From the sequence record NC_052654.1: 64,000 nucleotides of DNA; one strand, 5' to 3'. A program made the translations under genes and the position numbers. Positions 986 to 60,716 of this stretch are shown here, one piece after another (the stretch's first letter is position 1; every line of letters begins with the position of its first letter). Under the pieces are notes generated by a model. That model was not told where the DNA came from, did not search any database, and saw nothing but the letters and a program-made list of their open reading frames with translations. This DNA is from Escherichia phage vB_EcoM-Ro121c4YLVW.

Positions 986-1978
986 ATGCGCTATCTGGTA
1001 ACAGGTGGTCTTGGTTTTATTGGGAGTGCCGTGGTGCGCTCTCTTTGTCAAGATCCTAATAACGAAGTTTTTGTCGTTGATAAGATGAGCTATGCAGCAG
1101 ATATTGAGAATGTAGGCGATATCACTCACGTTAAACTAAGCATGACAGATTTGGCAAACGAAGCCCAAGTAAAAAGTTTAGTAGTAGAGTGCAATCCCGA
1201 TTTCATCATTCACTTAGCGGCAGAGAGTCATGTGGATAATTCTATCAAGAATCCACGAGTTTTCATCGACTCCAATATTATTGGTACATACAATTTATTG
1301 GAAGCTGCAAGGCTCCTCCCAAAGAATAAACTGAAGATGTTCGTACACGTCTCCACAGACGAAGTGTACGGCGATATGGCAGACTCTGGCGTTCCCTTTA
1401 CCGAAGAGACAGCTTATGCCCCTTCAAGCCCATACAGTGCGTCTAAGGCAGCATCTGACCATCTTGTGAAAGCTTGGCACCGTACCTACGATTTGCCTGT
1501 TGTGATAACCAACTGCTCCAATAACTTTGGACCTTATCAACATCCAGAAAAGCTGATCCCAAAAATCATCACAAGTATTTTGACGAATAAAGAGATTCCG
1601 GTGTATGGTAAAGGCGATCAGGTGCGAGACTGGCTTTTTGTTGAGGATCATGCGAGAGCTATTCTTCAAGTGGCAACAGGTGGAGAACCAGGCCAAACGT
1701 ATAACGTTGGAACACGTAATCCCAAAACCAATATGGAGATCATCTATATGGTTTGTGACTACATGGATGCTGTACATCCAGAAGCAGGAACCTACCCTTC
1801 TTCCAACTTGATAACTTTTGTTGAAGATCGTAAAGGACATGACTTGCGTTATGAAATCAATCCTTCTAAGATAGAGTCTGAACTGGGTTGGAGTGCAAAC
1901 TCTACATTTGAACAAGATCTCTACTCAACGATTGAATGGTACTTAAACAACCCTCAATGGTGGAGTGAGAAGATTTAA
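986..1978 (+). CDS. rfbB: dTDP-glucose 4,6-dehydratase
   Basis: N-terminal TGGxGFIGS Rossmann motif, STDEVYG and YSASK (YxxxK) motifs typical of RmlB. Confidence 0.85.
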
Positions 1979-1986
1979 GGAGGGCT

Positions 1987-2865
1987 ATGAAAGGTATTAT
2001 TTTGGCTGGAGGAAGTGGAACCCGCCTTCATCCGGTAACACGCAGCGTGAGCAAGCAATTGCTCCCTGTGTATGACAAACCCATGATCTACTACCCTTTA
2101 TCGGTATTGATGTTGGCTGACATTAAGGATATCTTAATCATCACCACACCAGGCGATCAGGAAGACTTTGAGTATCTTCTCGGAGATGGGTCTATGTTTG
2201 GGATAAAACTCACTTACGCAATCCAATCCGAGCCACGAGGTCTTGCGGACGCTTTCATCATCGGTAAAGATTTTATCGGAGAAGACTCTGTTGCTCTTAT
2301 TTTAGGTGACAACCTATTCTTCGGACAAAGCTTTGGTAAACTACTGATTAACGCCAGTGAGATGGTAGATGTTTGGGGCGGAGCTTGTATCTTCGGGTAT
2401 TTGGTGAAAGATCCTGAACGATTCGGTGTGGTTGAATTTGGGAGTAATCGTCAAGCTATTTCTATTGAAGAGAAACCTGAAAATCCTAAATCAGATTACG
2501 CTGTCACAGGTTTGTATTTCTATGATAACTCTGTTGTTCAACGTGCATTAGAAGTAACCCCTTCCGCGCGTGGAGAACTGGAGATCACAGATATCAATCG
2601 CAGCTACCTCGAAGACAGGAAGTTACAAGTGGAAGTTCTCGGACGAGGATTTACTTGGCTTGACACAGGAACACACGCCAGTCTGATGGAAGCTGGTCAA
2701 TTCGTGCAGACTATTGAGAACCGGCAAGGATTGAAGATTGCGTGCCTGGAAGAAATTGCTTTCAAAAAAGGGTGGATTTCTTTAGAGACTTTGGTGTATC
2801 ATGGAAACTCACTGAAGAAAACAGAATACGGGCAATACCTACTCAAATTAGCGGAGAGAAAATGA
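1987..2865 (+). CDS. rfbA: glucose-1-phosphate thymidylyltransferase
   Basis: [16 protein letters not shown]...[17 protein letters not shown]-terminus typical of RmlA. Confidence 0.85.
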
Positions 2866-3428
2866 AAGTAGAAAAAACAAAAATTGAAGGTGCGGTAATT
2901 ATCAAACCAGACGTTTATAAAGATGATCGTGGTTTCTTTTTAGAAACATATAATGAACAAAAATACGAAGATATTATTGGTAGACAAACTTTCGTTCAAG
3001 ATAACATGTCTAAATCAAACTTCGGTGTTTTGCGAGGAATGCACTTTCAAACAAATAATCCGCAAGGTAAGCTTGTTCGTTGTGTAAGTGGGGAAGTATT
3101 GGATTTCGCTGTAGACCTACGTAAAGATAGTCCTACTTACGGTGCTTGGGACGGTGTTGTTCTTCGTGCACGACACCATACACAGTTCTGGCTTCCACCT
3201 GGTTTGGCACATGGTTTTATAGTGTTGAGTATGGATGCTATCTTCGAATACAAATGCACAACTCCATACGACCCTTCCAGCGAACAAAGTTTACGTTGGG
3301 ATGATCCTGATATAGGGATTGATTGGGGCTTCGATATGATTTTTGACGAAGATTTTAAACCTATCTTATCAACAAAAGATGCAATGGCTAAGTCTTTTCA
3401 ACAGCTACGTAGCGAGGGTGTATGCTAA
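2862..3428 (+). CDS. rfbC: dTDP-4-dehydrorhamnose 3,5-epimerase
   Basis: RmlC-like cupin with RGMHFQ motif; ATGA overlap with rfbA; start chosen at internal ATG after RBS. Confidence 0.8.
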
Positions 3429-4264
3429 CATATCTGGTATTGGGCGGTAATGGACAACTGGGACAAGCTTTACGTAAAGTGGCTCCTTCAAATGTATCTT
3501 TAATTTATCCTAAAGAACGTGTAGATATTACAAATTTTGAAGCTGTGCGAAACGCTATTGTTGAAGATTATGTAGATGGTGTTATTAATTGCGCTGCTTA
3601 TACGGCTGTAGATAAAGCAGAACATGATTTTGCTACTGCTTTGGCTGTTAATTCCTACGGCCCTGCAAACATTGCAGCAGTGTGCAGTAAACTTAAAATT
3701 GATTTTGTGCATATTTCTACAGACTATATTTTTAATTACTCTCATCCTATTTTTGAAGATACTACACCTAACCCAATAAACAATTATGGGTATACGAAAG
3801 AACTTGGTGAAAAAATGGTGCGAGGAGTTAACCCAAATGCATATATTATTCGAACAGCCTCGGTATATAGCGAATTTGGAAATAACTTTCTAAAAACCAT
3901 GTTGTCTCGCTATAATGATGGACAACGTGATTTTATTATTGTTGCTGATCAGTTCTCTTGTCCAACATATGCTCCAGATTTAGCAGAAGCTATTTTTGAA
4001 GTATTAAAAACAGGTTGGTCAAGGTCTGTTAAGACTTACCATTTTGCAGGAAGCCATCTTATTTCTTGGGCGGAGTTTGCGGAAAAGATCTTGACACAGA
4101 TGCCAGAACCTGTTAAGATATCGGCGGTATCAGCTTCAACCTATAATGCTCCAGCAGCACGTCCGGTGAAGTCACAATTAGTAACCAGTCACTATCTTAC
4201 AAAATCAGATTTAAATAAAGGTATTGAACGGTCTTTAGCAGTATTACTTAATAAGGAGAGGTAA
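3422..4264 (+). CDS. rfbD: dTDP-4-dehydrorhamnose reductase
   Basis: LGGNGQLG N-terminal Rossmann motif, length and position after rfbC. Confidence 0.75.
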   Translation: MLTYLVLGGNGQLGQALRKVAPSNVSLIYPKERVDITNFEAVRNAIVEDYVDGVINCAAYTAVDKAEHDFATALAVNSYGPANIAAVCSKLKIDFVHISTDYIFNYSHPIFEDTTPNPINNYGYTKELGEKMVRGVNPNAYIIRTASVYSEFGNNFLKTMLSRYNDGQRDFIIVADQFSCPTYAPDLAEAIFEVLKTGWSRSVKTYHFAGSHLISWAEFAEKILTQMPEPVKISAVSASTYNAPAARPVKSQLVTSHYLTKSDLNKGIERSLAVLLNKER

Positions 4265-4524
4265 TGGAATTTGTAATTTTTGGTAAACCTAACTGTCAAT
4301 TTTGCGAAATGTCAAAACAACTATTAACCATGCGCAATAAACAGTTTGAATATTTAAGTCTTGACCAAGACTACGATTTAGAATCAATGACTAAAACAGT
4401 TGTTGATCTTACCGGAGTTCCTCCACGCACATTTCCACAAATTCTGTCTGAAGTGAACGGGGAGGTAACATACGTAGGCGGTTTTACCGAACTGCGTGAT
4501 CTCATGGCTCAAATTGCGGAGTAA
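4264..4524 (+). CDS. glutaredoxin/NrdC-like thiol-disulfide protein
   Basis: CQFC redox motif near N-terminus, about 86 aa, similar architecture to T4 NrdC. Confidence 0.55.
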   Translation: MEFVIFGKPNCQFCEMSKQLLTMRNKQFEYLSLDQDYDLESMTKTVVDLTGVPPRTFPQILSEVNGEVTYVGGFTELRDLMAQIAE

Positions 4525-4686: not shown

Positions 4687-5187
4687 ATGGCTAAAGTAGT
4701 AGATGAGTTTGATATGCTACGAGTCGATGAAGGACTGAAGCTTACTGTTTATCAAGACCATCTTGGTTATTGGACAGTCGGCATAGGACACCTTCTGACT
4801 AAAATAAAAGATAAAGCAAAGGCTATTCAAATCTTAGATAATCTCCTTGGTCGTAAGACCAATGGAGTTATCACAGAAAAAGAAGCCCGTCAAATCTTTG
4901 CTGACGATGTTGCAAAAGTGAAGAGAGACATAAAAAACAGTGCTATCTTATCACCAATCTATGATAAGGTGAGTGATACTCGTAAATTGGGAATAATCAA
5001 CATGGTTTTCCAGTTGGGGTTAAAAGGTGCTGAAGGGTTTAAAAATAGCTTGACTTTAATCAGCAATGCATATTATACTCAAGCAGGTAAAAACATGCGT
5101 AAAAGCCGATGGTATAGCCAGACGCCAAACCGTGCTGAACGAGTAATTAAAGTTCTGACTTCTGGAACTTTAGATGCTTACAACTAA
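4687..5187 (+). CDS. T4-type lysozyme (endolysin)
   Basis: DEGLKLTVYQD...GYWTVGIGHLLTK...NMVFQLG...AKSRWYSQTPNRAERV closely parallels T4 gene e lysozyme. Confidence 0.9.
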   Translation: MAKVVDEFDMLRVDEGLKLTVYQDHLGYWTVGIGHLLTKIKDKAKAIQILDNLLGRKTNGVITEKEARQIFADDVAKVKRDIKNSAILSPIYDKVSDTRKLGIINMVFQLGLKGAEGFKNSLTLISNAYYTQAGKNMRKSRWYSQTPNRAERVIKVLTSGTLDAYN

Positions 5188-6018: not shown

Positions 6019-6519
6019 ATGGGTGTAGCAACAATAGCTATCGGAAGAAGCGGTATAGATGAGTGCTATCAAACGGGACTCGTAAAACCTAACGAATTTC
6101 GTCAAATTTGTGTAAACCATATTGAAAAAGAGATTGCTCTTACTTTAGAGAATATGACCCTCCGAGATAAACTGGAAATGTTTAAATGTTGGTGTCTAGG
6201 AGAAGATTGGCTTTTAAACCATTTTCAAGAACTTTCTGATAGTAAAGAAAGCTTGTTTGATTGTATAATAGGAATAGCTGGCTCCGATCCTAGCCTTCTG
6301 CACATAACAGAAGAAGAGGCGAAGTTACTGTTCTTAAGTAATTTGTTTAATAAGAAAGCACTGCTTGTTCGTGATTGTAGTGATCTTCTTAATAACCCGC
6401 TCGCAACGTCTGATCAAATTTTTGTTGACAAAGAGACACTACGTGCGATAGAATACATCTGCAAATATGTGAATGGCGGGAAAGCGGTTCTTAAAACATT
6501 AACAGAGGAGGAAGAATAG
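6019..6519 (+). CDS. hypothetical protein
   Basis: ORF track 167 aa; RBS AAGGAGG. Confidence 0.5.
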   Translation: MGVATIAIGRSGIDECYQTGLVKPNEFRQICVNHIEKEIALTLENMTLRDKLEMFKCWCLGEDWLLNHFQELSDSKESLFDCIIGIAGSDPSLLHITEEEAKLLFLSNLFNKKALLVRDCSDLLNNPLATSDQIFVDKETLRAIEYICKYVNGGKAVLKTLTEEEE

Positions 6520-7211
6520 TGACGACAATTATTGCAACCAAAAATAAGATTTTGAGTGACGGTAAGGTAACTTTTGGTGGACGTGTAGATTCTATTAATT
6601 TCAAAAAGGTCCGAAAAATTGGAGATTACCTTGTAGGTGGTGCTGGTCGTCTGACCTCCGTGCTTTCTTTCTTTCAATGGTTTGAACAAAATCTACAGTG
6701 CGAAGCAGCACGTGATGCTGTCCCTGGTTTGATGATTCACTCTGATCCAGATAAAGAAGATGAAGAGTTTATTGCACTTGTTGTTCATCCAGACGGACGT
6801 ATTTTCCTGCACGAAGGTAATAACCCAACACGTGCATATCCGATTGATGAAGAATATTATGCGGTAGGAAGCGGGTCAGACTTTGCTTTAGCTGCTCTTG
6901 ATGCAGGGGCAACACCAGAACAGGCTATGGAAGTAGCTAAAAAGCGAGATGCTTTTTCTGGTGGTGAAACATTTATTGAAGAACAAGACGAGATTATTGA
7001 ATTAACAGATGATGATTTAGAAAACTTCTCCAAAGAAGAATTGATCAATCTTTTGAAATTCGGTAATCCCTACGGTGAAGAAGAACCTCGTAACGTGGCA
7101 GGTAACGAGGCGGATACTGAAGAAAAATCTGTTGCAGAAAACAACTTGACTTCTAAATCTGAAAATATTAATCTCGTAAATGTGGCGGATTTCGAAGGAA
7201 CCGCTATTTAA
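6519..7211 (+). CDS. HslV-like (proteasome beta-like, Ntn-hydrolase) peptidase with acidic C-terminal extension
   Basis: N-terminal MTTI (Thr after Met), GGAG and AVGSGSDFALAAL motifs as in HslV; GTG start after GGAGG. Confidence 0.65.
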   Translation: MTTIIATKNKILSDGKVTFGGRVDSINFKKVRKIGDYLVGGAGRLTSVLSFFQWFEQNLQCEAARDAVPGLMIHSDPDKEDEEFIALVVHPDGRIFLHEGNNPTRAYPIDEEYYAVGSGSDFALAALDAGATPEQAMEVAKKRDAFSGGETFIEEQDEIIELTDDDLENFSKEELINLLKFGNPYGEEEPRNVAGNEADTEEKSVAENNLTSKSENINLVNVADFEGTAI

Positions 7212-7214
7212 CAA

Positions 7215-7239
7215 ACTGCCCCTTCGGGGGCATTTCTTA
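7215..7239 (+). terminator. Rho-independent terminator
   Basis: tgccccttcgggggca hairpin followed by tttctt. Confidence 0.5.
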
Positions 7240-7256
7240 AACATAGGAGATTAATA

Positions 7257-7691
7257 ATGTTACAAGTTCCTGCTAAGTTTGTTGAAGGCGCTATCCACTC
7301 TTACCGTCAAACATGTAAGAGGGCAAGAAACTGTTTAGATGGTCTGGTGGCAAAAACCTATACTGTTGAAAAGAAGAAACGTTGGTTTGGCAAAGATGTT
7401 TACGAAGTTAATATTTTTGGTGAACATAAACTAAACCACGATACTCCTGAAAACATGTTAGAAATATTTCTAAGAGATGACAAAATATCTCCTATGGATT
7501 ACCAACTTTTAAAATTTTATGATTCTTCTTTGGCTATTGATAAGTTTGTTGAAGATATTCTGTCTAGAAAAACAGATAAAAACACTTATCCTCTAGAGGC
7601 TGATCAAATAGGATTATTAAACGAGATTTCATCCTTTAAAGAGTTGGATAATATTACAAAAGAGGAGATTTTAGATGGCATTAGATTATGA
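7257..7691 (+). CDS. hypothetical protein
   Basis: ORF track 144 aa. Confidence 0.5.
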   Translation: MLQVPAKFVEGAIHSYRQTCKRARNCLDGLVAKTYTVEKKKRWFGKDVYEVNIFGEHKLNHDTPENMLEIFLRDDKISPMDYQLLKFYDSSLAIDKFVEDILSRKTDKNTYPLEADQIGLLNEISSFKELDNITKEEILDGIRL

Positions 7692-8184
7692 TCGCCCAAC
7701 GAGCGATTATTATCCGACACCGCAAAAAGCAATCAATAGTTTGTTTAGTGTTATAGATTTCAAAAATCTAAAGGAAGAAGGTTGGGTTTTTGCAGAACCT
7801 TGCAGAGGTGAAGCTGAAGCGATTTATCGCCATTTTCCTGAAGGTTCAGAATATTGCGAACTTGAAGAAGGTAAAGATTATTTTAGTCATGAATGGGAAA
7901 ATCGTCCCGACATTATAATCACAAATCCTCCATTTAAGTTAGCAATGGAGTTCTTGGAAAAGAGCTTAAAAGAGGCGGATGTTTGTATTTATCTTCTTCG
8001 GTTGGGCTTCTTGGAGTCAAAGAAACGACGAGAGTTCCATCAAAAGAATCCACCAACAAACCTTATAGTCCTTTCAGAACGGCCTTCGTTTGTTGCAGGT
8101 GGAACAGATAAGACAGCATACGCTTGGTATGTATACGACCCAAAGAATCGTTTGGGCCTCTCTCAACCATTTTATTTTGTTTAA
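7675..8184 (+). CDS. SAM-dependent methyltransferase, N6-adenine DNA MTase-like
   Basis: DYYPTP and catalytic NPPF motifs. Confidence 0.5.
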   Translation: MALDYDRPTSDYYPTPQKAINSLFSVIDFKNLKEEGWVFAEPCRGEAEAIYRHFPEGSEYCELEEGKDYFSHEWENRPDIIITNPPFKLAMEFLEKSLKEADVCIYLLRLGFLESKKRREFHQKNPPTNLIVLSERPSFVAGGTDKTAYAWYVYDPKNRLGLSQPFYFV

Positions 8185-13269: not shown

Positions 13270-14211
13270 ATGGTGTTAATTGGTAGCCGTGCATTGCAAA
13301 TTCATGCTATGGACATGGGAAAAGACTTGTATCGCCCTTGTGTAGATTTAGATTACCTGTGTACAGAACAAGAGTGGGAAGAATTATCAAAAATGTTCTC
13401 TCAAGAGGAGTTTGTTGAACTTGTAGAACGTAAAGGAAACAAAGGCCATGTCAAAATGATAGCTGGTGCACATTTGGAATACGATATTGCTTCTCAAGGA
13501 GATAGCACAGAAGCTTTGATTAGTTATTGTGAAGATTCTGATGATGTTCGTCGAACTTACGCTGGACATGTTGTTGCTCCTTTAGATGTGCTCTACCTTC
13601 TTAAAATGAGTCATCGTTTTAAAAAGGATAGTCCTCACTTCTTTAAAACTATGAAAGATATTCATTTCATGCGGTCACTGGGCGCAAAGATCCCAGAAAA
13701 TCTTAAGAGTATTTATGAGTTGCGTGAGAAAGAAACATACACTTACTCTCATCCGAACTTAAACGTAAAAAGTAAAGACTTTTTTAAAGGTGATGAGGTT
13801 CCGTATGTTTATGATCATGATTCTATCCATGAAGCAATCGCGGTAATGGATGCTCCGGCATATAAATCTTATATGAAAGATGGAAGTGAAGTTATGACCA
13901 GCAAAGAAAAGTTTTTTGCTCAACCAAAACATGTGCGCCTGTTAGGTGTTTATGAAGAAGCGTGTGTTTTGGCTTTGGAACGTTCACAAATTCCTTTCGG
14001 TGGAGAGATCGGAGGTCCAACCCCTAAGCAAAGTTTTATAATGGCTTTATCTAAAGTCTGCACATCCATCACTAGTGGTTGGTTTAGGGAATATGCTTGG
14101 GAAAACTTTTATGTTGTTATTAAGCTATATGAAAACATGGGCGAAAACGACTATGTTGAACGTTTTAAAGCTAATCAACATGTAGTAAAGCCTTTTGAAG
14201 GAGGTTATTAA
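13270..14211 (+). CDS. hypothetical protein, possibly Pol-beta-type nucleotidyltransferase fold
   Basis: N-terminal GSRAL...DLD resembles the GS...DxD NTase signature (weak); 313 aa. Confidence 0.45.
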   Translation: MVLIGSRALQIHAMDMGKDLYRPCVDLDYLCTEQEWEELSKMFSQEEFVELVERKGNKGHVKMIAGAHLEYDIASQGDSTEALISYCEDSDDVRRTYAGHVVAPLDVLYLLKMSHRFKKDSPHFFKTMKDIHFMRSLGAKIPENLKSIYELREKETYTYSHPNLNVKSKDFFKGDEVPYVYDHDSIHEAIAVMDAPAYKSYMKDGSEVMTSKEKFFAQPKHVRLLGVYEEACVLALERSQIPFGGEIGGPTPKQSFIMALSKVCTSITSGWFREYAWENFYVVIKLYENMGENDYVERFKANQHVVKPFEGGY

Positions 14212-15995: not shown

Positions 15996-16481
15996 ATGTT
16001 TCAAGTAAATGTCAATGTGCATAATAGTTACTCTGATTGTGAAACGTGTGGCTATAATTCATCTAATGTTATTCGTATTAGTGGCGATTTAGGAGAAGCT
16101 TCTTTTGGAGAAGAAGCAAGTTGCTTTAGTGGTATGGATGCAGAATGGAATGATATTGCACATTGGTTAGTGAGCAAACTAAAAGAAAAAGAGAAACCAT
16201 TTCCTACTCTGCTTGATCGTTCTCTTGTGGAAGATGCAGGTAAAGCATATGCAGACTATGCGTATGCAGACGGGAAATATTTGGAAGATGATAAGGCTAA
16301 CCATTTGCTTTATGTTTACTATGAAGCTGAATCTGCCTACGATAATTATTACAGCATGTCTAACATCCTACGTCTGTTTGCAGAGTTTGATATTTATTTC
16401 GAAGTAGAATTTTCAGAAGATGATACTTACGAGTACAATTCTTATGATCCATTTGAGGAGGAAGAATGCCAAGACGAGTGA
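15996..16481 (+). CDS. highly acidic protein (possible DNA mimic)
   Basis: 161 aa, D/E/Y-rich C-terminal half; overlaps Sir2-like start by 16 nt. Confidence 0.45.
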   Translation: MFQVNVNVHNSYSDCETCGYNSSNVIRISGDLGEASFGEEASCFSGMDAEWNDIAHWLVSKLKEKEKPFPTLLDRSLVEDAGKAYADYAYADGKYLEDDKANHLLYVYYEAESAYDNYYSMSNILRLFAEFDIYFEVEFSEDDTYEYNSYDPFEEEECQDE

Positions 16482-17281
16482 TTTTTGTAAGCGGTGCAGG
16501 TTTAAGTGCAGACAGTGGGATTCGAACATTTAGAACAGACACAGATAGTGGTCGTGCTTTATGGGAAGAATATGATTTAGAAGAGGTCTGCGATATTGGA
16601 GCTTTCCAAGCAGGTTATCGTGTTAGAACATCTCCAGATCTTCCAGTGGTCGGTGGTGTAGACGAGAACGGTATGGATTTGTATGCCAAAACACACGAAT
16701 TTTATAACAAAAGACGTGTTGAGCTTAAAGATGTACAACCTAATGCTGCACATATTCAAATAGCAAAGTGGTTTAAGGAATATCCTAACCAAATAGTAAA
16801 CTTGACAACAAACGTTGATGATCTACTAGAGCGAGCAGGTGTAGACAGAGATTCTGTTATTCACGTACACGGATATCTTCCTGAAGTAGTTTACCGTATG
16901 CATCCCGGAGATTACAAAACACTGGTAGATATTGGTTACAATAGTATAAACATAGATGATTATAACTGGGTGAAGCCTAATGTTGTATTTTTTGGTGAGG
17001 CTGCACCTTTGTATGCAGATATGGCTCACTTGTTCGATACTTTGACCATGCAAGATTTGGTTGTAGTAGTAGGATGTTCAAACCAAGTTATCAATTTTAA
17101 TTGGGAATTATTTCCTGCACTTAGTATGGGTACAAAAATGGTTGTAGTTAACCCTGGAGTTAATTACGAAGAAACACTTCTCTATGAAGATCGTGGAGTT
17201 TTTGTTTACCGAGAAAAAGCTGCAACAGCCTTCAGCAATGAAGGTTTCATTAAAATGGTCGAAGACCACTTAAACAAATAA
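16466..17281 (+). CDS. Sir2-like (sirtuin-family) NAD-dependent protein
   Basis: GAGLSADSGIRTFR NAD-binding motif, HVHG and VVVGCS motifs. Confidence 0.65.
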   Translation: MPRRVIFVSGAGLSADSGIRTFRTDTDSGRALWEEYDLEEVCDIGAFQAGYRVRTSPDLPVVGGVDENGMDLYAKTHEFYNKRRVELKDVQPNAAHIQIAKWFKEYPNQIVNLTTNVDDLLERAGVDRDSVIHVHGYLPEVVYRMHPGDYKTLVDIGYNSINIDDYNWVKPNVVFFGEAAPLYADMAHLFDTLTMQDLVVVVGCSNQVINFNWELFPALSMGTKMVVVNPGVNYEETLLYEDRGVFVYREKAATAFSNEGFIKMVEDHLNK

Positions 17282-48689: not shown

Positions 48690-49055
48690 TTAATCCATCC
48701 ACCAGTAGCCATAAACTGCGTCTGCGTCGATGAGTTTGTGTTTGTTGTTCCGCATGTAGTCTAAGATAAGTAGACGTTTATTGTATCTGGAGAGATTATG
48801 ACCCTCTTTTCCGCCATAGTCAAAATATTTTGCAAGATCTTTACACTCAAACAAAATCAGTTCGGGAGTTTCTTCACACTGGTCTGTCTGGTACACTTGA
48901 CGAATGATCATGTATACATCGTCGTCTTCCGCTAAATGCTCTACTGGTCCACATCCAGCAGGAACAAATTCATAGTCCCATCTGATCAGATGTTTCTCTA
49001 CTGCTTCAAAGAAATCCATCCTTTCGTTGCGCATAATTTGAACGTCAACTAACAT
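48690..49055 (-). CDS. hypothetical protein
   Basis: ORF track 121 aa. Confidence 0.45.
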   Translation of the reverse strand: MLVDVQIMRNERMDFFEAVEKHLIRWDYEFVPAGCGPVEHLAEDDDVYMIIRQVYQTDQCEETPELILFECKDLAKYFDYGGKEGHNLSRYNKRLLILDYMRNNKHKLIDADAVYGYWWMD

Positions 49056-50251
49056 GTTTCCTCCTGTAATGTTCCACCATAAAGTTTATAAATGTTTTGT
49101 ATTGAGGCCATGCAAGATAACTCTACTGTTTCTGTGTAGCCATCTGGCATAGAATATTTGCTCACTGCTTCCGTGTGAAGGACACGCTTACAACGCTTTT
49201 CTGCATCTTTGCATTGCTTCACAGTAGGGAAGTGCCACACTTGGACCTGTTTCATAGTAAACACATTACGACTATTTTGTTTTTTGATACGGCGATCACT
49301 ATTATTGGCAATTCCAAATTTCAAAGCACAGAGAATACCTTGTTCATCATGAATGTGGTTAATGTAACATTGTTGTTGTGTCTGGTTAGCACATTGCGGA
49401 CAACCAGTGCCATGATTTAACAAACCACTGGCACGTCCTATTTGTACCCCATGTTTCTTACATCCATATTTAAACTTACCTAATCTTACAGACGGTTTCC
49501 CGATCCAACCTACCCAGATATACCCTTTCCTTTCTACTGCCTTTTTTACCCTATAGGTAATCTGTGCTTCTGTGTAATGACAGTTAGTTGCACAACGGCA
49601 AGGAATCTTCCCTTGTTTAAGGTCATTCCCTGCGACATAAAACTTACCATCACACACCCCAGCTTGCACATACTCATCGTGAGAGCAGGCAGGACACTCT
49701 ACACACCATAAAGAATCGCGGCCTCGTTTTTTATCTGTTTTAGTGAAGATTGTACCCTCTTTAAACTTTCCTGTATTAATGAAGTCTTGTATGTGCTGAT
49801 CGTCTGGAAGTATTTTAGAATTCCTAGATCTTTTGTTACCGCATTTAGGACAACCACTACCACCCTTAAGATTATGAAATGTTAATGTTCGCCATTCCCC
49901 GTGCTCAGGACAAAGGTTGATCATCTTTGTATGTACACCTATAAACTCTCCATTAATGCCTAAAATCTTGATTCCCTTAGCTTCAGCAATAGGCTTACAT
50001 TCCGAAAGGTAATAATCTAGGTTTTTACTGTTGTCTTGTCTTGCTTTCTCATTTTTGCACCTAGGGCAACCAGACTTACCACGTTTAAAATTGGCAAATG
50101 TGGATGTTCTCCACTCCCCATGATTAGGGCAGAAGTTGATCATCTTCGTGTGCACACCTTTAAATGGCTCTACAATCCCTATAATCTCATATCCTTTAGC
50201 TTCCGCTATTGGTTTACATTCTCCTATATACTGTTCTAACGTCTTCGCCAT
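49049..50251 (-). CDS. multi-zinc-ribbon protein with internal tandem duplication; possible nuclease-like C-terminal domain
   Basis: Two about 80-aa repeats ending CPxHGEWRT..F.N.K.G.SGCPxC; further CxxC pairs; C-terminal FGIANNSDRRIKKQNS region. Confidence 0.5.
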   Translation of the reverse strand: MAKTLEQYIGECKPIAEAKGYEIIGIVEPFKGVHTKMINFCPNHGEWRTSTFANFKRGKSGCPRCKNEKARQDNSKNLDYYLSECKPIAEAKGIKILGINGEFIGVHTKMINLCPEHGEWRTLTFHNLKGGSGCPKCGNKRSRNSKILPDDQHIQDFINTGKFKEGTIFTKTDKKRGRDSLWCVECPACSHDEYVQAGVCDGKFYVAGNDLKQGKIPCRCATNCHYTEAQITYRVKKAVERKGYIWVGWIGKPSVRLGKFKYGCKKHGVQIGRASGLLNHGTGCPQCANQTQQQCYINHIHDEQGILCALKFGIANNSDRRIKKQNSRNVFTMKQVQVWHFPTVKQCKDAEKRCKRVLHTEAVSKYSMPDGYTETVELSCMASIQNIYKLYGGTLQEETC

Positions 50252-50330: not shown

Positions 50331-51470
50331 TCAGAACACGCTACCCAGTGTAGTGGAACGTTGTGTTACAGGCTCCAGCACCACTCGCAGAGTGTTTCCT
50401 GGTGTAGTGCTCATCACCAGAATCTTACCACCTTCAATCAGATCACAAGTTAGACCATCAGCAGTTGCACACAGATCAATATGTGGATCGCCATCTTCAT
50501 CCAGGATAACATAACTGTTGGTTTCCATTGCTTCCACTTCATCATCTTTCAAACTTTGCAGATAGATGTTCAGGGAACAAGCACCCGACAAAAACTTAGT
50601 AGGGGTGAAGTCGTGCCAGTTATTGATCCAATTCACCTTCAGGGTTTTGCCATTAGCTACGATAGAAGCCACATTCCATTTAGCATCGTTGCCTAAAGAA
50701 ATACCCATCATTTCCAGACATTCTTTAAAAGTCATTTTTGGATAGAAATTCAATTCTTCTACAATACCTTGAATAACATCAAAAGACAACTCTGTACTAA
50801 CATCCCATAAACGTTGGAAGTTATCTACGTGCTTTTTATTTACCAAGTTCTTATCCAAGTAATCTAACATAGTTTCACTAGACAGTTTATCGTAATTGAA
50901 ACTGTAATAGATACGACTAGGACGGTTTACAAAATATTCCGAGATATAACCACTATTTTTAGTGAGGATGTAAAGTTTATTCCCACTTCCTGTTCCATCC
51001 AACAAGGTCAACAGTGCTTCCTGATCTTCTTTCTTAGCGTACACTTTATCAAATTCGTCAAATAAAACAACAGCACGATCTGTAATTTTACTCATAAATT
51101 CTAAGAAGCCAGCATCTGTGTAAGGCTGTGTAACCAAAATGGTTGGAATACCTAAACCTTCTGTGGACATTAGAGACATGCTAATCAGTTTAGCTAACAT
51201 CGTCTTACCACTGCCCTTTGTCCCTGTCAGTAACACCCCAGTATTTTTACCTTCTTTACTACGACGAGCAAATGTTTTAATAACATGTGCGGCGCGGTCT
51301 TTAGTTTCCCCATAAAGAGTGTTCGGAAGAGAGAAACTTTCGCCACGCACTAAAGAGTAGTTACCGTGCGGATCGCAGTTGACAACCCAAACTCCAGCAG
51401 GAAGTTTATTAGCTTCAACGCCATATTCCTTATTTACAACCGCTACATCTCCAAAAATAGTGTATTTCAT
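50331..51470 (-). CDS. AAA+ ATPase
   Basis: Walker A GTKGSGKT, Walker B VVLFDEFD; 379 aa. Confidence 0.65.
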   Translation of the reverse strand: MKYTIFGDVAVVNKEYGVEANKLPAGVWVVNCDPHGNYSLVRGESFSLPNTLYGETKDRAAHVIKTFARRSKEGKNTGVLLTGTKGSGKTMLAKLISMSLMSTEGLGIPTILVTQPYTDAGFLEFMSKITDRAVVLFDEFDKVYAKKEDQEALLTLLDGTGSGNKLYILTKNSGYISEYFVNRPSRIYYSFNYDKLSSETMLDYLDKNLVNKKHVDNFQRLWDVSTELSFDVIQGIVEELNFYPKMTFKECLEMMGISLGNDAKWNVASIVANGKTLKVNWINNWHDFTPTKFLSGACSLNIYLQSLKDDEVEAMETNSYVILDEDGDPHIDLCATADGLTCDLIEGGKILVMSTTPGNTLRVVLEPVTQRSTTLGSVF

Positions 51471-59123: not shown

Positions 59124-60716
59124 GTGTCTACACAATTGAGTTTTACACCTACCGATGAACAATACGCTATTGAAAGTGGGTATCAAGAAAATCGTTTCGT
59201 TACAATTCAAGCTAAATCTGGATCAGGTAAAACGTCAACACTGTATATGTTGGCTAATGGCACAAATGATAGTATTCTATACTTGGCGTTTAACAAAAGT
59301 ATGGCAGAGGAAGCTCGACGTAAAATGCCGCCTAATGTTATGTGCCGAACGCTACATTCAATCTGTTACCAGCGTCTTCCACAAAACCTTCGACACAAAT
59401 TGTCTCGTCCAGAAGGTCAATATGTTAACGTAGCTGGAACTGGTAGTGAGATTGCCAAAAAATTCAAGATTCAGAACTTGATTGATAAGAATGGTAAAGT
59501 GCTACTGACTCGTGCAATGATCGGGTTAATGGTAAAACAAACTTTAGCTAAATATGAGTTTTCTGACGATGAACATATTGGACATAAACATTTTCCTAAA
59601 GTGCATATGTCAGATCTTAAACGTAAGAACATCAACGAACAAAAACTTATTAACGAAGTTGTTAAATATGCGAAGCAACTTTGGCGTGAGCGTATTGATC
59701 CTAAATCAGAAACCATTATGACTCATGACACCTATGTGAAACTCTTTGAATTGAGTAAAGAAGATTTAGGATACGATATTATTTTTGGAGATGAATTCCA
59801 GGATGTTAACCCTGCATTCCTGTCTATCCTTCGCAATGCTAAATCGGCTAAACGTATTGTTGTTGTGGGTGATGAATTTCAGAGTATTTATCAGTTCCGT
59901 GGAAGCCAGAACATGATGAAGCAAACGGCTAAATATGGGGTTGAGTTGCCTCTGACAGCTTGTTTTCGCTTTGGTCCTAAAGTTGCGGACATTGCTAATG
60001 CGATCCTTTCTGATCGCTCACCTCTGAAGCATCCGCTGGTAGGCAAAGGTTATGATACTGTCACTGGAAGTTTTCATTCTGATGTGGTAGATTATAGTAA
60101 ACCTTACACCATTATTTTCCGTAAGAATTTGACCCTGTTGCTCGAAGCTATGGATCGAATCGCTAACGGAGAAGAGATTATTATTAACGTAGATACCAAA
60201 GATTTCATTTCTATGGTTGATAGTGTTAATGCTTTACGTAGAGGTGATTTGGACAAAGTTAAGCATGAGACAGTTCTACCTTACACTTCTTGGGAAGAAT
60301 TTGTAGAGTGTGCAGAATCAGATCCTGATGCAAAACGACTTTTAAACATCGTTGTTTCTGGTAAAGCTAATAATATTGCATACACTTTACGTATGCACCG
60401 TAACTCTCCAACGGCTAAAGTTACTTTAACTACAGCCCACAAATCAAAAGGTTTGGAGTGGGATCAGGTTATTGTTGCAAATGACTTCCCTTCCAATTAT
60501 GATAAGAAGGGTGAGTGGGTAGGTCTTGAAGAATCAGAACGAAATCTTCTGTATGTTGCACATACACGTTGTATTAAATGTCTGCAATGGAACCGAACTG
60601 TTCAAGAGATTTTAGACATGCATCGTTTAGGTAAGAGCACGGCTCCTGTATCTGAAGAAGATAAGCTTATAGCTGCCCTTGCTCGTAAGATTAATCAAAT
60701 CAGAGAGGATCGTTAA
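59124..60716 (+). CDS. UvrD/Rep-family (SF1) DNA helicase-like protein
   Basis: Walker A AKSGSGKTS, motif II GDEFQD, C-terminal TTAHKSKGLEWDQVIV; GTG start after AGAGGAGAAA. Confidence 0.65.
   Translation: MSTQLSFTPTDEQYAIESGYQENRFVTIQAKSGSGKTSTLYMLANGTNDSILYLAFNKSMAEEARRKMPPNVMCRTLHSICYQRLPQNLRHKLSRPEGQYVNVAGTGSEIAKKFKIQNLIDKNGKVLLTRAMIGLMVKQTLAKYEFSDDEHIGHKHFPKVHMSDLKRKNINEQKLINEVVKYAKQLWRERIDPKSETIMTHDTYVKLFELSKEDLGYDIIFGDEFQDVNPAFLSILRNAKSAKRIVVVGDEFQSIYQFRGSQNMMKQTAKYGVELPLTACFRFGPKVADIANAILSDRSPLKHPLVGKGYDTVTGSFHSDVVDYSKPYTIIFRKNLTLLLEAMDRIANGEEIIINVDTKDFISMVDSVNALRRGDLDKVKHETVLPYTSWEEFVECAESDPDAKRLLNIVVSGKANNIAYTLRMHRNSPTAKVTLTTAHKSKGLEWDQVIVANDFPSNYDKKGEWVGLEESERNLLYVAHTRCIKCLQWNRTVQEILDMHRLGKSTAPVSEEDKLIAALARKINQIREDR

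What the first reader, a model, noticed from the sequence alone, without database searches (positions are those of the whole stretch)
6519..7211. HslV-like Ntn-hydrolase peptidase with an acidic C-terminal tail
The product starts MTTII (Thr exposed after Met removal, as in the HslV catalytic nucleophile) and has GGAG and AVGSGSDFALAAL motifs in the right order, but carries an extra acidic tail of about 60 residues (EE/DD-rich) not found in bacterial HslV. No HslU-like ATPase is adjacent. A phage HslV-like subunit could hijack host HslU, act as a decoy, or be a self-contained protease.
Basis: partly seen in the sequence, partly recalled or inferred. Interest (0 to 1): 0.5.

Follow-up and report, generated by a model that had tools for sequence, protein, structure and literature searches.

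The report
Phage proteasome-like peptidase with acidic tail
This gene of a phAPEC8-like E. coli phage encodes a small relative of the proteasome/HslV protease with an intact active site and an extra acidic tail; the gene is real and already annotated in dozens of phage genomes, but nobody has tested what it does.

Summary
ORF 6519-7211 (+), with a GTG start, encodes a 230-aa protein that begins MTTII and carries the GGAG and AVGSGSDFALAAL motifs. Residues 157-230 form a tail with 20 D/E and 5 K/R. The window is a Phapecoctavirus (phAPEC8-like), and RefSeq already names this gene 'peptidase HslV family' (PHROG 1040).

It is a true proteasome-fold homologue. The equivalents of Thr1, Asp17, Lys33, the oxyanion Gly and the Ser-Gly motif are invariant or nearly so across relatives down to 27% identity. 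It is not an HslV orthologue: it scores 31-32 bits against HslV cut-offs of 137-158. The model also lacks helix H2, which carries part of the HslU docking pocket. That matches the phage 'PPH/RPC' type described by computation in 2021.

The tail is a family trait. It has an acidic linker, a conserved helical hairpin (LT.E.L..MSKEELL.LLFG) and an acidic disordered end. The gene is translationally coupled to an orphan all-alpha 166-aa gene. No HslU-like ATPase was seen in the parts of the genome examined. One sequenced isolate (VEcB) has deleted the catalytic half.

My best reading is an accessory threonine peptidase that works without HslU. Its biological role is unknown. This is a new member of a known, uncharacterised kind, of moderate interest.

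The parts
6505..6511 (+). Shine-Dalgarno sequence GAGGAGG, 7 nt upstream of the GTG start
   Evidence: Read directly from the sequence. Conserved as AGGAGGAAG in phage JohannJBalmer.
6519..7211 (+). CDS of the 230-aa proteasome-like (PPH-type, HslV-related) N-terminal-threonine peptidase. The GTG start shares G6519 with the TAG stop of the upstream gene.
   Evidence: 99.6% identical to phAPEC8 gp175, which RefSeq annotates as 'peptidase HslV family'.
6519..6986 (+). Ntn-hydrolase core, residues 1-156. Key residues: Thr2 (mature Thr1, nt 6522-6524), Asp14 (6558-6560), Lys30 (6606-6608), GGAG 40-43 (6636-6647), GSG 117-119 (6867-6875), RDAFSGG 143-149 (6945-6965).
   Evidence: In the AF2 model almost every 10-residue block of this stretch has mean pLDDT of 90 or more. 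The exceptions are residues 61-80, where H2 would lie (86 and 77), and the last six residues. The strand/helix order is that of proteasome beta subunits and HslV, but with a single helix H1 (45-67) and no H2. Catalytic columns are invariant or nearly so.
6744..6767 (+). Conserved acidic loop DPDKEDEE (residues 76-83). It lies where helix H2 and the pore loop lie in HslV and the proteasome.
   Evidence: Family consensus SDPDKxDEEF, with D81 conserved in at least 90% of sequences. Coil in the model. The position was compared with the pore-loop description in PMC8665760.
6999..7064 (+). Conserved tail motif ELTDDDLENFSKEELINLLKFG (residues 161-182), predicted as two short helices (164-169 and 172-181).
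   Evidence: pLDDT 82-86. The motif is found in 41 of 59 tails from representatives clustered at 50% identity, against 1.8 expected in shuffled tails (maximum 7). Consensus: L-T-[RK]-E-[DE]-L-E-x-M-S-K-E-E-L-L-x-L-L-F-G.
7065..7208 (+). Acidic, low-complexity C-terminal end (residues 183-230), predicted disordered.
   Evidence: pLDDT below 50 for residues 189-225. The sequence is not conserved but the acidity is: 130 of 135 homologous tails carry a net negative charge, with a median of -13.
7217..7240 (+). GC-rich hairpin TGCCCCTTCGGGGGCA followed by TTTCTT. It resembles an intrinsic terminator and starts 6 nt after the stop codon.
   Evidence: A hairpin of different sequence (CCCCCTTAAGGGGG followed by TTATT) sits at the same place in JohannJBalmer.
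6019..6519 (+). Upstream 166-aa gene (phAPEC8 gp174, phrog_14834), translationally coupled to the peptidase gene. A possible partner of unknown function.
   Evidence: The stop/start overlap is TAGTG here and TAATG in JohannJBalmer. The pair stays adjacent in relatives down to 33-37% identity. The gene is present in 132 phage records, and it sits next to the peptidase gene in every record where I compared positions. AF2 gives pLDDT 91.7 for an all-alpha fold. No informative structural neighbour was found. It is not related to the proteasome fold.

Best explanation
The gene encodes a phage-type compact proteasome homologue. It has a PPH-like core in the HslV/BPH branch of the family, plus a C-terminal extension.

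Shown here:
- It has the proteasome-beta/HslV fold.
- After removal of the initiator Met it exposes Thr1, with the Asp17, Lys33, oxyanion-Gly and Ser-Gly partners in place.
- The model lacks helix H2.
- It carries a conserved acidic loop where H2 and the pore loop would be.
- It carries a conserved tail: an acidic linker, a short helical hairpin, then an acidic disordered end.
- It is co-translated with an orphan all-alpha protein.
- It lies among nucleotide-metabolism and accessory genes, far from the head genes.
- It is dispensable in at least one isolated phage.

Inferred:
- It works as an N-terminal-threonine peptidase without HslU. It probably assembles into rings like HslV or BPH and cleaves peptides or unfolded or disordered proteins in the infected cell.
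- The tail points away from the ring and acts as a tether or recognition arm. In relatives the same linker carries additional, variable C-terminal domains.
- The role is accessory, such as host takeover, counter-defence or timing, rather than virion assembly.
For: Identity and active site:
- Sequence and family matches.
- M1 T2 T3 I4 D14 K30 G43 G117 S118 G119 are invariant in 25 sequences down to 27% identity, and at least 90% conserved in 70 sequences.
- The RDxxSGG motif typical of 20S beta subunits is conserved.
- The AF2 core is confident and the best Foldseek matches are HslV, BPH and 20S beta at about 1e-10, with TM 0.65-0.69 normalised by target.

Not HslU-dependent:
- It scores 31-32 bits against HslV equivalog cut-offs of 137 and 158.
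- No H2 is predicted. PMC8665760 reports the same for PPH/RPC.
- The HslU C-tail pocket in E. coli HslV is lined by Phe54 and Phe57 (H1), Ala79 and Lys80 (H2) and Gln114 (PMC6429459). The H2 residues have no counterpart here.
- No HslU- or ClpX-like gene was seen in the window or in the 86 kb of phAPEC8 inspected in addition.
- The one AAA ATPase (50331-51470, minus strand) is about 43 kb away. It also occurs in many phages of genera that did not appear among the peptidase hits, such as Enterococcus, Bacillus and Staphylococcus phages and crAss-like phages.
- BPH has no known unfoldase and also has an acidic pore loop. Here DPDKEDEE is conserved at that position.

Tail as a functional module:
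- 130 of 135 homologous tails carry a net negative charge.
- The hairpin motif occurs in 41 of 59 tails against 1.8 in shuffles.
- Relatives append further domains after it.

Accessory role:
- VEcB carries a clean 1,122-bp deletion that removes Thr1 to Gly47, the upstream gene and part of phoH.
- The head module lies elsewhere in the genome.
Against: - No activity, oligomeric state or substrate is known for any member of this family. No experimental paper was found.
- Ring assembly could not be modelled, because only monomer prediction was available.
- The absence of H2 rests on an AF2 model and one published computational analysis.
- All cultured hosts of phages with detectable homologues are Proteobacteria. 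Proteobacteria generally have HslU, so co-operation with host HslU through a non-canonical contact is not excluded.
- The VEcB deletion is a single database record and could be an assembly artefact.
- Connectase shows that proteasome homologues can be ligases rather than proteases.
Confidence: 0.5

Rival explanations
1. Hijacking of host HslU. The phage subunit forms rings that dock onto E. coli HslU, or mixes into host HslV rings. This would redirect or boost ATP-dependent degradation during infection.
For: HslV chains are the closest solved sequences. The N-terminus MTTI is the same as in HslV. All cultured hosts of phages carrying detectable homologues are Proteobacteria, which as a rule have HslUV (general knowledge). 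The H1 residues that align with the pocket residues Phe54 and Phe57 remain hydrophobic (Leu49 and Phe52; my alignment, using the residue list).
Against: - It fails the HslV equivalog models by about 100 bits and shares only 22-26% identity with HslV structures.
- Helix H2, which carries the pocket residues Ala79 and Lys80, is missing. Gln114 aligns with a proline.
- The C-terminal half looks more like a 20S beta subunit (RDxxSGG) than like HslV.
- PMC8665760 lists PPH in lineages beyond the Proteobacteria as well.
Confidence: 0.15
2. A specific processing enzyme or ligase rather than a bulk protease. On this reading it acts like connectase, as a monomer or small oligomer, on one defined target. 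The target could be the co-translated upstream protein or a host factor, recognised through the tail.
For: - The family includes the monomeric ligase connectase (PMC8665760 abstract).
- The paper notes that several new homologues have elements incompatible with stacked rings.
- The peptidase gene is tightly and conservatively coupled to a single partner gene.
- Relatives have a modular tail with variable terminal domains, which suggests targeting.
Against: - There is no connectase-like insertion between S3 and S4, and helix H1 is retained.
- The nearest structures all form rings.
- The upstream partner is absent from the Vibrio relative. In the Aeromonas relative the upstream gene is instead a second Ntn paralogue.
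Confidence: 0.15
3. A non-catalytic decoy or inhibitor. The protein would titrate a host factor (HslU, another AAA+ unfoldase or a DNA-binding protein) through its acidic tail, which might mimic DNA. Catalysis would be irrelevant.
For: The tail is strongly acidic, disordered and conserved in composition. Acidic tails often act as mimics or binding arms in phage proteins (general knowledge).
Against: Every catalytic residue is conserved down to 27% identity, and also in the roughly 140-aa relatives that have no tail. Such conservation would not be expected of a pure decoy. No HslU-like or HbYX-like C-terminus occurs among 125 tail-bearing homologues.
Confidence: 0.07
4. Prohead maturation protease or another virion-assembly protease.
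For: Many large phages encode a dedicated head protease.
Against: - The gene sits among early or accessory and nucleotide-metabolism genes (glutaredoxin, lysozyme, PhoH, methyltransferase). It lies about 30 kb from the portal and major-head-protein module and on the opposite strand.
- Homologues in other phages also sit among small accessory genes.
- VEcB lacks the catalytic half yet was isolated and propagated as a phage.
Confidence: 0.02

Closest known systems
[quoted passage not shown]
   Same: - A compact proteasome-like core with Thr1, Asp17, Lys33 and Gly47.
- Helix H2 missing.
- Carried by tailed phages.
- No propeptide.
- A C-terminal extension, as in RPC.
- A profile of this family retrieves thousands of MTTI... 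proteins of about 140-150 aa at E values of 1e-25 to 1e-32.
   Different: - The core is about 156 aa, and the protein reaches 230 aa with its 74-aa tail, against about 140 aa for PPH.
- RPC was reported only in proteobacterial genomes, not in phages.
- I found no description of the conserved tail hairpin motif or of the coupled upstream gene in that paper.
HslV (ClpQ), the peptidase of the bacterial HslUV protease
   Same: - The best solved sequence match (1m4y, 1.7e-14 with the family profile).
- The same fold.
- The same MTT N-terminus, so Thr1 is exposed by Met removal without a propeptide.
- The same catalytic residues.
   Different: - It scores 31-32 bits against equivalog cut-offs of 137-158, with 22-26% identity.
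- No helix H2, and so only half of the HslU tail pocket.
- No hslU partner gene.
- An RDxxSGG motif like that of 20S beta subunits.
- An extra acidic tail.
BPH (bacterial proteasome homologue, Thiobacillus denitrificans; PDB 5ovs and 5ovt)
   Same: The second-best structural match (1.4e-10). It has no known unfoldase partner and has an acidic loop lining the cavity, which parallels the conserved DPDKEDEE loop here.
   Different: BPH keeps both H1 and H2 and has no C-terminal tail. Sequence similarity is too low to place it among the 60 listed of the 81 profile hits against PDB sequences. BPH forms rings of seven subunits; the oligomeric state of this protein is unknown.
20S proteasome beta subunits (beta5 type)
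   Same: The fold and the catalytic constellation. The C-terminal half (residues 108-168), including RDxxSGG, aligns best with beta5 (about 5e-10).
   Different: No propeptide, no alpha-type partner, no H2, no S12/H5 elements, and a much smaller protein.

Membership tests
Proteasome-like Ntn hydrolases (Pfam PF00227 superfamily) | Alpha-beta-beta-alpha Ntn fold of the proteasome beta type | tested here: met
   The AF2 core is confident. Foldseek finds 893 PDB matches with E of 0.001 or less, and all 50 rows shown are HslV, BPH or 20S proteasome chains. Pfam PF00227 scores 25.6 bits against a gathering score of 22.4.
Proteasome-like Ntn hydrolases (Pfam PF00227 superfamily) | N-terminal Thr nucleophile with the Asp17, Lys33, Gly47 and Ser129-Gly partners | tested here: met
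   T2, D14, K30, G41/G43 and G117-S118-G119 are invariant or at least 90% conserved in alignments A1 and A2. They align with the HslV residues. Actual Met removal and catalysis were not tested.
HslV (ClpQ) | Scores above the curated HslV equivalog models (NF003964, TIGR03692) | tested here: not met
   32.2 bits against a cut-off of 137, and 31.4 bits against 157.75.
HslV (ClpQ) | The H1/H2 helix pair that forms the HslU-facing surface and the pocket for the HslU C-terminus (Phe54, Phe57, Ala79, Lys80 and Gln114 in E. coli HslV) | tested here: not met
   Residues 68-83 are coil in the model, with no H2. The pocket residues are taken from PMC6429459. Ala79 and Lys80 have no counterpart, and Gln114 aligns with Pro108.
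HslV (ClpQ) | Encoded with, and working with, an HslU AAA+ unfoldase | tested here: not met
   No HslU-like gene is adjacent or present in the window. None is annotated in the 86 kb of phAPEC8 inspected in addition. Use of the host's HslU could not be tested.
HslV (ClpQ) | Dodecamer of two stacked rings of six subunits | not testable with these tools
   Only monomer prediction was available.
PPH (Fuchs et al. 2021) | Compact proteasome homologue that lacks helix H2 | tested here: met
   A single long helix (45-67) followed by coil (68-83). The criterion comes from PMC8665760.
PPH (Fuchs et al. 2021) | Length of about 140 residues | tested here: not met
   The protein is 230 aa: a core of about 156 aa plus a 74-aa tail. 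About 60 of the top 150 representatives share such tails, and the rest are 137-160 aa.
PPH (Fuchs et al. 2021) | Carried by tailed phages or prophage regions | tested here: met
   232 phage records hold a match. The only close match among 185,579 bacterial species genomes is a 425-bp contig that is probably contamination.
PPH / RPC (Fuchs et al. 2021) | Clusters with the published representatives (WP_042125023.1 for PPH, WP_140207863 for RPC) | not testable with these tools
   The accession numbers are known but the sequences cannot be fetched here.
RPC (Fuchs et al. 2021) | PPH-like core with a C-terminal extension or extra domain; reported in proteobacterial genomes only | tested here: inconclusive
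   A C-terminal extension is present. However, this subfamily is phage-borne, and its core is close to that of the short PPH-like proteins.

The most novel reading that the evidence does not exclude
The peptidase and the co-translated orphan protein (6019-6519) form a phage-specific 'mini-proteasome' module that needs no unfoldase. The acidic, hairpin-bearing tail would tether the ring to a defined host target, such as a nucleoid-associated or defence protein, and destroy it early in infection. In relatives the tail continues into weakly HeH/Rho_N-like or other variable domains.
Probability: 0.15. Interest if true: 0.7.

Novelty: new member of a known kind. Interest (0 to 1): 0.35.

Why it matters
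Phage-borne proteasome homologues are numerous. This profile alone finds about 10,800 cluster representatives at E of 0.001 or less, although that count will include ordinary HslV. [quoted passage not shown]

This gene sits in a well-studied group of E. coli phages (phAPEC8, phi92 and the BASEL phages) with a tractable K-12 host. Questions such as 'does a viral proteasome homologue need an unfoldase?' and 'what does it degrade?' could therefore be tested directly.

Three things found here make such an experiment easier to design:
- the conserved tail motif;
- the coupled partner gene;
- the natural deletion in VEcB.

The finding is not a discovery of a new kind of system, because the gene is already annotated as an HslV-family peptidase in many records.

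Tried and rejected

2. Is the phage AAA ATPase at 50331-51470 (minus strand) a dedicated unfoldase partner? It has weak Cdc48/Rix7-like matches. Rejected: it is about 43 kb away on the other strand. It also occurs widely in phages of genera that did not appear among the peptidase hits, while Vibrio and Caulobacter phages with the peptidase are not prominent among its hits.

3. Does the tail end mimic the HslU C-terminus or a HbYX motif and activate the ring in cis? Rejected: 0 of 125 tail-bearing homologues end in [FY]-hydrophobic-hydrophobic or in Hb-Y-X, and the termini are not conserved.

4. Is the sigma-70-like promoter at 6425-6454 (11 of 12 matches) a dedicated promoter? Doubtful. It overlaps the codons of the conserved VDKETLRAIEY peptide and is not kept in JohannJBalmer.

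5. Is the second tail motif of relatives (..YAHNIG.EKL..) a bona fide HeH/Rho_N domain? Only sub-threshold Pfam hits were found (Rho_N E = 0.022-0.39; Ish1 E = 0.0088). The window protein lacks this motif.

6. A PADLOC scan of the peptidase and its neighbours gave no defence-system match for the peptidase or its two flanking unknowns.

7. The 'repeat_region' annotated inside the gene in phage nepoznato is only the GAA-rich stretch that encodes the acidic linker.

8. Literature searches for any experimental work on phage HslV or PPH proteins found none. They returned only annotation remarks.

9. A Foldseek search of AFDB50 was not possible, because the library is not installed.
Full report
**1. 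The observation**

The ORF is present exactly as described. It runs from 6519 to 7211 on the + strand, has a GTG start and encodes 230 aa. A strong Shine-Dalgarno sequence (GAGGAGG, 6505-6511) precedes it. Its first base is the last base of the TAG stop of the upstream gene (TAGTG).

The product starts MTTIIATK. It has GGAG at residues 40-43 and AVGSGSDFALAAL at 115-127. Its last 74 residues (157-230) hold 20 D/E and 5 K/R, a net charge of -15.

A GC-rich hairpin followed by a T-rich run lies 6 nt after the stop (7217-7240). A hairpin of different sequence occupies the same place in a phage of the sister genus.

**2. Where the window comes from**

The protein is 99.6% identical to a gene in many of the 62 near-identical (at least 99%) phage records. 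These are mostly Phapecoctavirus records: phAPEC8, ESCO5, ESCO13, Schickermooser and others. It is 66-86% identical in further Stephanstirmvirinae such as phi92-like Justusliebigvirus.

RefSeq names the gene 'peptidase HslV family'. Other depositors call it 'ATP-dependent protease subunit HslV', 'putative proteasome component' or 'nucleophile aminohydrolase'. It belongs to PHROG 1040 (1.6e-63). The gene is therefore known and annotated, although I found no experimental work on it or on any phage homologue.

**3. What the protein is**

By sequence it is a distant proteasome/HslV relative.
- Pfam Proteasome passes only just (25.6 bits against a cut-off of 22.4, over residues 11-61).
- The best solved relatives are HslV chains: T. 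maritima 1m4y at 4.9e-9 with the single sequence and 1.7e-14 with a 70-sequence profile.
- The two curated HslV equivalog models give 31-32 bits against cut-offs of 137 and 158. It is not an HslV orthologue.

The catalytic residues are kept.
- In alignments of 25 and 70 homologues reaching down to 27% identity, M1 T2 T3 I4, D14, K30, G41/G43 and G117-S118-G119 are invariant or at least 90% conserved.
- They align with Thr1, Asp17, Lys33, the oxyanion glycines and the Ser-Gly motif of HslV.
- The C-terminal half carries RDAFSGG, the RDxxSGG motif of 20S beta subunits, and aligns best with beta5.
- Thr after the initiator Met is a good substrate for methionine aminopeptidase, as in E. coli HslV (general knowledge). 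The nucleophile should therefore be exposed without a propeptide.

An AlphaFold2 model built on the 70-sequence alignment is confident for residues 1-156. Foldseek matches HslV, BPH and 20S beta subunits at about 1e-10, with TM 0.65-0.69 normalised by target.

The model has one long helix (45-67) where HslV has the H1/H2 pair. Residues 68-83 are coil and contain the conserved acidic stretch DPDKEDEE (family consensus SDPDKxDEEF).

**4. Placement among known families**

Fuchs, Alva and Lupas (2021, PMC8665760) surveyed proteasome homologues by computation. [quoted passage not shown] They noted that PPH and RPC are the only groups that lack helix H2.

The window protein fits that description:
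- it lacks H2;
- it is phage-borne;
- it has no propeptide.

A profile search of 1.84 billion cluster representatives finds 10,808 proteins at E of 0.001 or less. The first 60 or so (180-350 aa) carry C-terminal extensions. Below them comes a large body of 137-160-aa MTTI... proteins at 1e-25 to 1e-32.

I could not test membership in the published clusters directly. A scan of 185,579 bacterial species genomes found no close relative apart from a 425-bp contig that looks like contamination. As far as that single-pattern scan goes, the tail-bearing subfamily is restricted to phages.

**5. The tail**

The acidic tail is a trait of the family, not an oddity of this gene.
- Of 135 homologous tails of at least 25 residues, 130 carry a net negative charge. 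The median is -13, and 25% of residues are D/E against 15% in the cores.
- Inside the tail is a conserved motif. In this protein it reads ELTDDDLENFSKEELINLLKFG (residues 161-182).
- The consensus is L-T-[RK]-E-[DE]-L-E-x-M-S-K-E-E-L-L-x-L-L-F-G, flanked by runs of Glu.
- It occurs in 41 of 59 tails from representatives clustered at 50% identity, against 1.8 expected in shuffled tails (maximum 7).
- The model folds it as two short helices (164-169 and 172-181, pLDDT 82-86). The rest (189-225) is predicted disordered.

Relatives extend the tail. Some add a second conserved motif (..L.V.YAHNIG.EKL..), which gives only sub-threshold hits to Rho_N and Ish1 HeH-type models. Others add Cys-rich domains.

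The architecture is therefore a protease core, an acidic linker with a hairpin, and a variable end. [quoted passage not shown]

**6. Partners**

No HslU-like gene is adjacent. Only ten ORFs in the whole window reach 250 aa, and none is HslU- or ClpX-like. Nothing of the kind is annotated in the other 86 kb of phAPEC8 that I read.

One AAA ATPase lies at 50331-51470 on the minus strand. It has weak similarity to Cdc48/Rix7-type AAA domains. It is about 43 kb away, and it is common in phages of genera that did not appear among the peptidase hits. I do not regard it as a partner.

A better candidate is the upstream 166-aa gene (6019-6519).
- Its stop overlaps the peptidase start, here and in the sister genus.
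- The pair stays adjacent in relatives down to 33-37% identity.
- It is present in 132 phage records.
- It is not related to the proteasome fold. It is confidently modelled as an all-alpha protein and has no informative structural neighbour.
- It is absent from the Vibrio relative.
- In the Aeromonas relative the upstream gene is instead a second, different Ntn paralogue.

**7. HslU dependence**

In E. coli HslV the pocket that receives the HslU C-terminus is lined by Phe54 and Phe57 on H1, Ala79 and Lys80 on H2, and Gln114 (PMC6429459).

In this protein the H1 positions remain hydrophobic (Leu49 and Phe52). The H2 positions do not exist, and Gln114 aligns with a proline. Canonical docking is therefore unlikely, although this rests on a model.

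No homologue ends in an HslU-like or HbYX-like motif. The tail is thus not a built-in copy of the HslU activating peptide.

BPH is the proteasome homologue with no known unfoldase, and it has a highly acidic cavity loop. The conserved DPDKEDEE loop here is a parallel, and no more than that.

**8. Is the gene essential?**

Phage VEcB is a RefSeq Justusliebigvirus species isolated from sewage. It carries a clean 1,122-bp deletion relative to JohannJBalmer, with 8 bp of microhomology at the junction.

The deletion fuses the N-terminal part of PhoH in frame to residue 63 or so of the peptidase. It removes the whole upstream gene and the Thr1, Asp17, Lys33 and Gly47 part of the peptidase. If the assembly is right, the catalytic protein is dispensable for propagation.

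Three points argue for an accessory role and against a role in head maturation:
- this dispensability;
- the gene's position among glutaredoxin, lysozyme, PhoH, methyltransferase and many small unknown genes, and likewise in Pseudomonas, Caulobacter and Rhizobium phages;
- its distance from the portal and major-head module.

**9. Verdict**

The structural interpretation is right but should read 'phage-type compact proteasome homologue (PPH-like) with a conserved acidic tail', not 'HslV'.

The most likely mechanism is an accessory N-terminal-threonine peptidase that works without HslU, with the tail serving as a tether or recognition arm (confidence about 0.5). The rivals are:
- co-operation with host HslU (0.15);
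- a specific processing or ligase activity (0.15);
- a decoy (0.07);
- a head protease (0.02).

The gene is already annotated and its family has been described by computation, so it is a new member of a known but uncharacterised kind. The tail motif, the coupled partner gene and the natural deletion are modest additions that would help anyone who wants to test what a viral proteasome homologue does.

Noticed in passing
window 6019-6519 (+): An orphan 166-aa all-alpha protein (phrog_14834) with invariant polar motifs GLVKPNEFRQ, LVRDCSD and VDKETLRA and two invariant cysteines. It is modelled confidently (pLDDT 91.7) but has no informative structural neighbour in the PDB. It is translationally coupled to the peptidase gene.
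   Followed up: yes
L010 (phage VEcB, NC_052663) 2501-3304, compared with L002 5065-6186: A natural in-frame deletion of 1,122 bp fuses PhoH to the C-terminal two-thirds of the peptidase. It removes the upstream gene and the catalytic N-terminus. RefSeq still calls the fusion 'peptidase HslV family'.
   Followed up: yes
L003 (Aeromonas phage 2L372D) 4432-5885: Two adjacent Ntn-hydrolase genes. gp210 (183 aa, MTCIIAL..., VGCGE motif) lies directly upstream of the tail-bearing homologue gp211 (294 aa). This could be a two-subunit arrangement. The jumbo phage pSal-SNUABM-04 is also reported to carry two HslV-like genes and no HslU (PMC7823757).
   Followed up: partly
window 986-4264 (+): A set of dTDP-rhamnose pathway genes: RmlB-like dehydratase (986-1978), RmlA-like thymidylyltransferase (1987-2865), an epimerase annotated in relatives, and RmlD-like reductase (3422-4264). 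They are followed by a glutaredoxin-like gene (4264-4524) and a T4-type lysozyme (4687-5187).
   Followed up: partly
window 50331-51470 (-) and 49049-50251 (-): An AAA ATPase (phrog_2376) with weak Cdc48/Rix7-like similarity lies next to an endonuclease carrying CapR and DUF723 domains. The ATPase is widespread in large phages of both Gram-positive and Gram-negative hosts, and its function is unknown.
   Followed up: partly
window 16466-17281 (+); 13270-14211 (+); 59124-60716 (+): A Sir2-family protein, a DUF7277/DUF7275 protein and a UvrD-like helicase. Only 10 ORFs of at least 250 aa occur in the 64 kb, and there are no tRNA genes in the window, so the region is dominated by small genes.
   Followed up: no
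window 6425-6454 (+): A near-consensus sigma-70-like site (TTGACA, 18 nt spacer, TAGAAT) lies inside the end of the upstream gene, 65 nt before the peptidase start. It overlaps the codons of a conserved peptide and is not conserved in the sister genus, so it may be a chance match.
   Followed up: yes
window 7257-7691 and 7675-8184 (+): The downstream 144-aa unknown gene (phrog_15078) overlaps by 17 nt the start of a small DNA methyltransferase (phrog_799). The same arrangement is seen in relatives.
   Followed up: no
L014 (Lysobacteraceae bacterium JHOS43, contig of 425 bp): A 425-bp contig in a bacterial draft genome encodes a stretch 100% identical to residues 68-208 of this phage protein. 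This is most likely phage contamination of the assembly.
   Followed up: no
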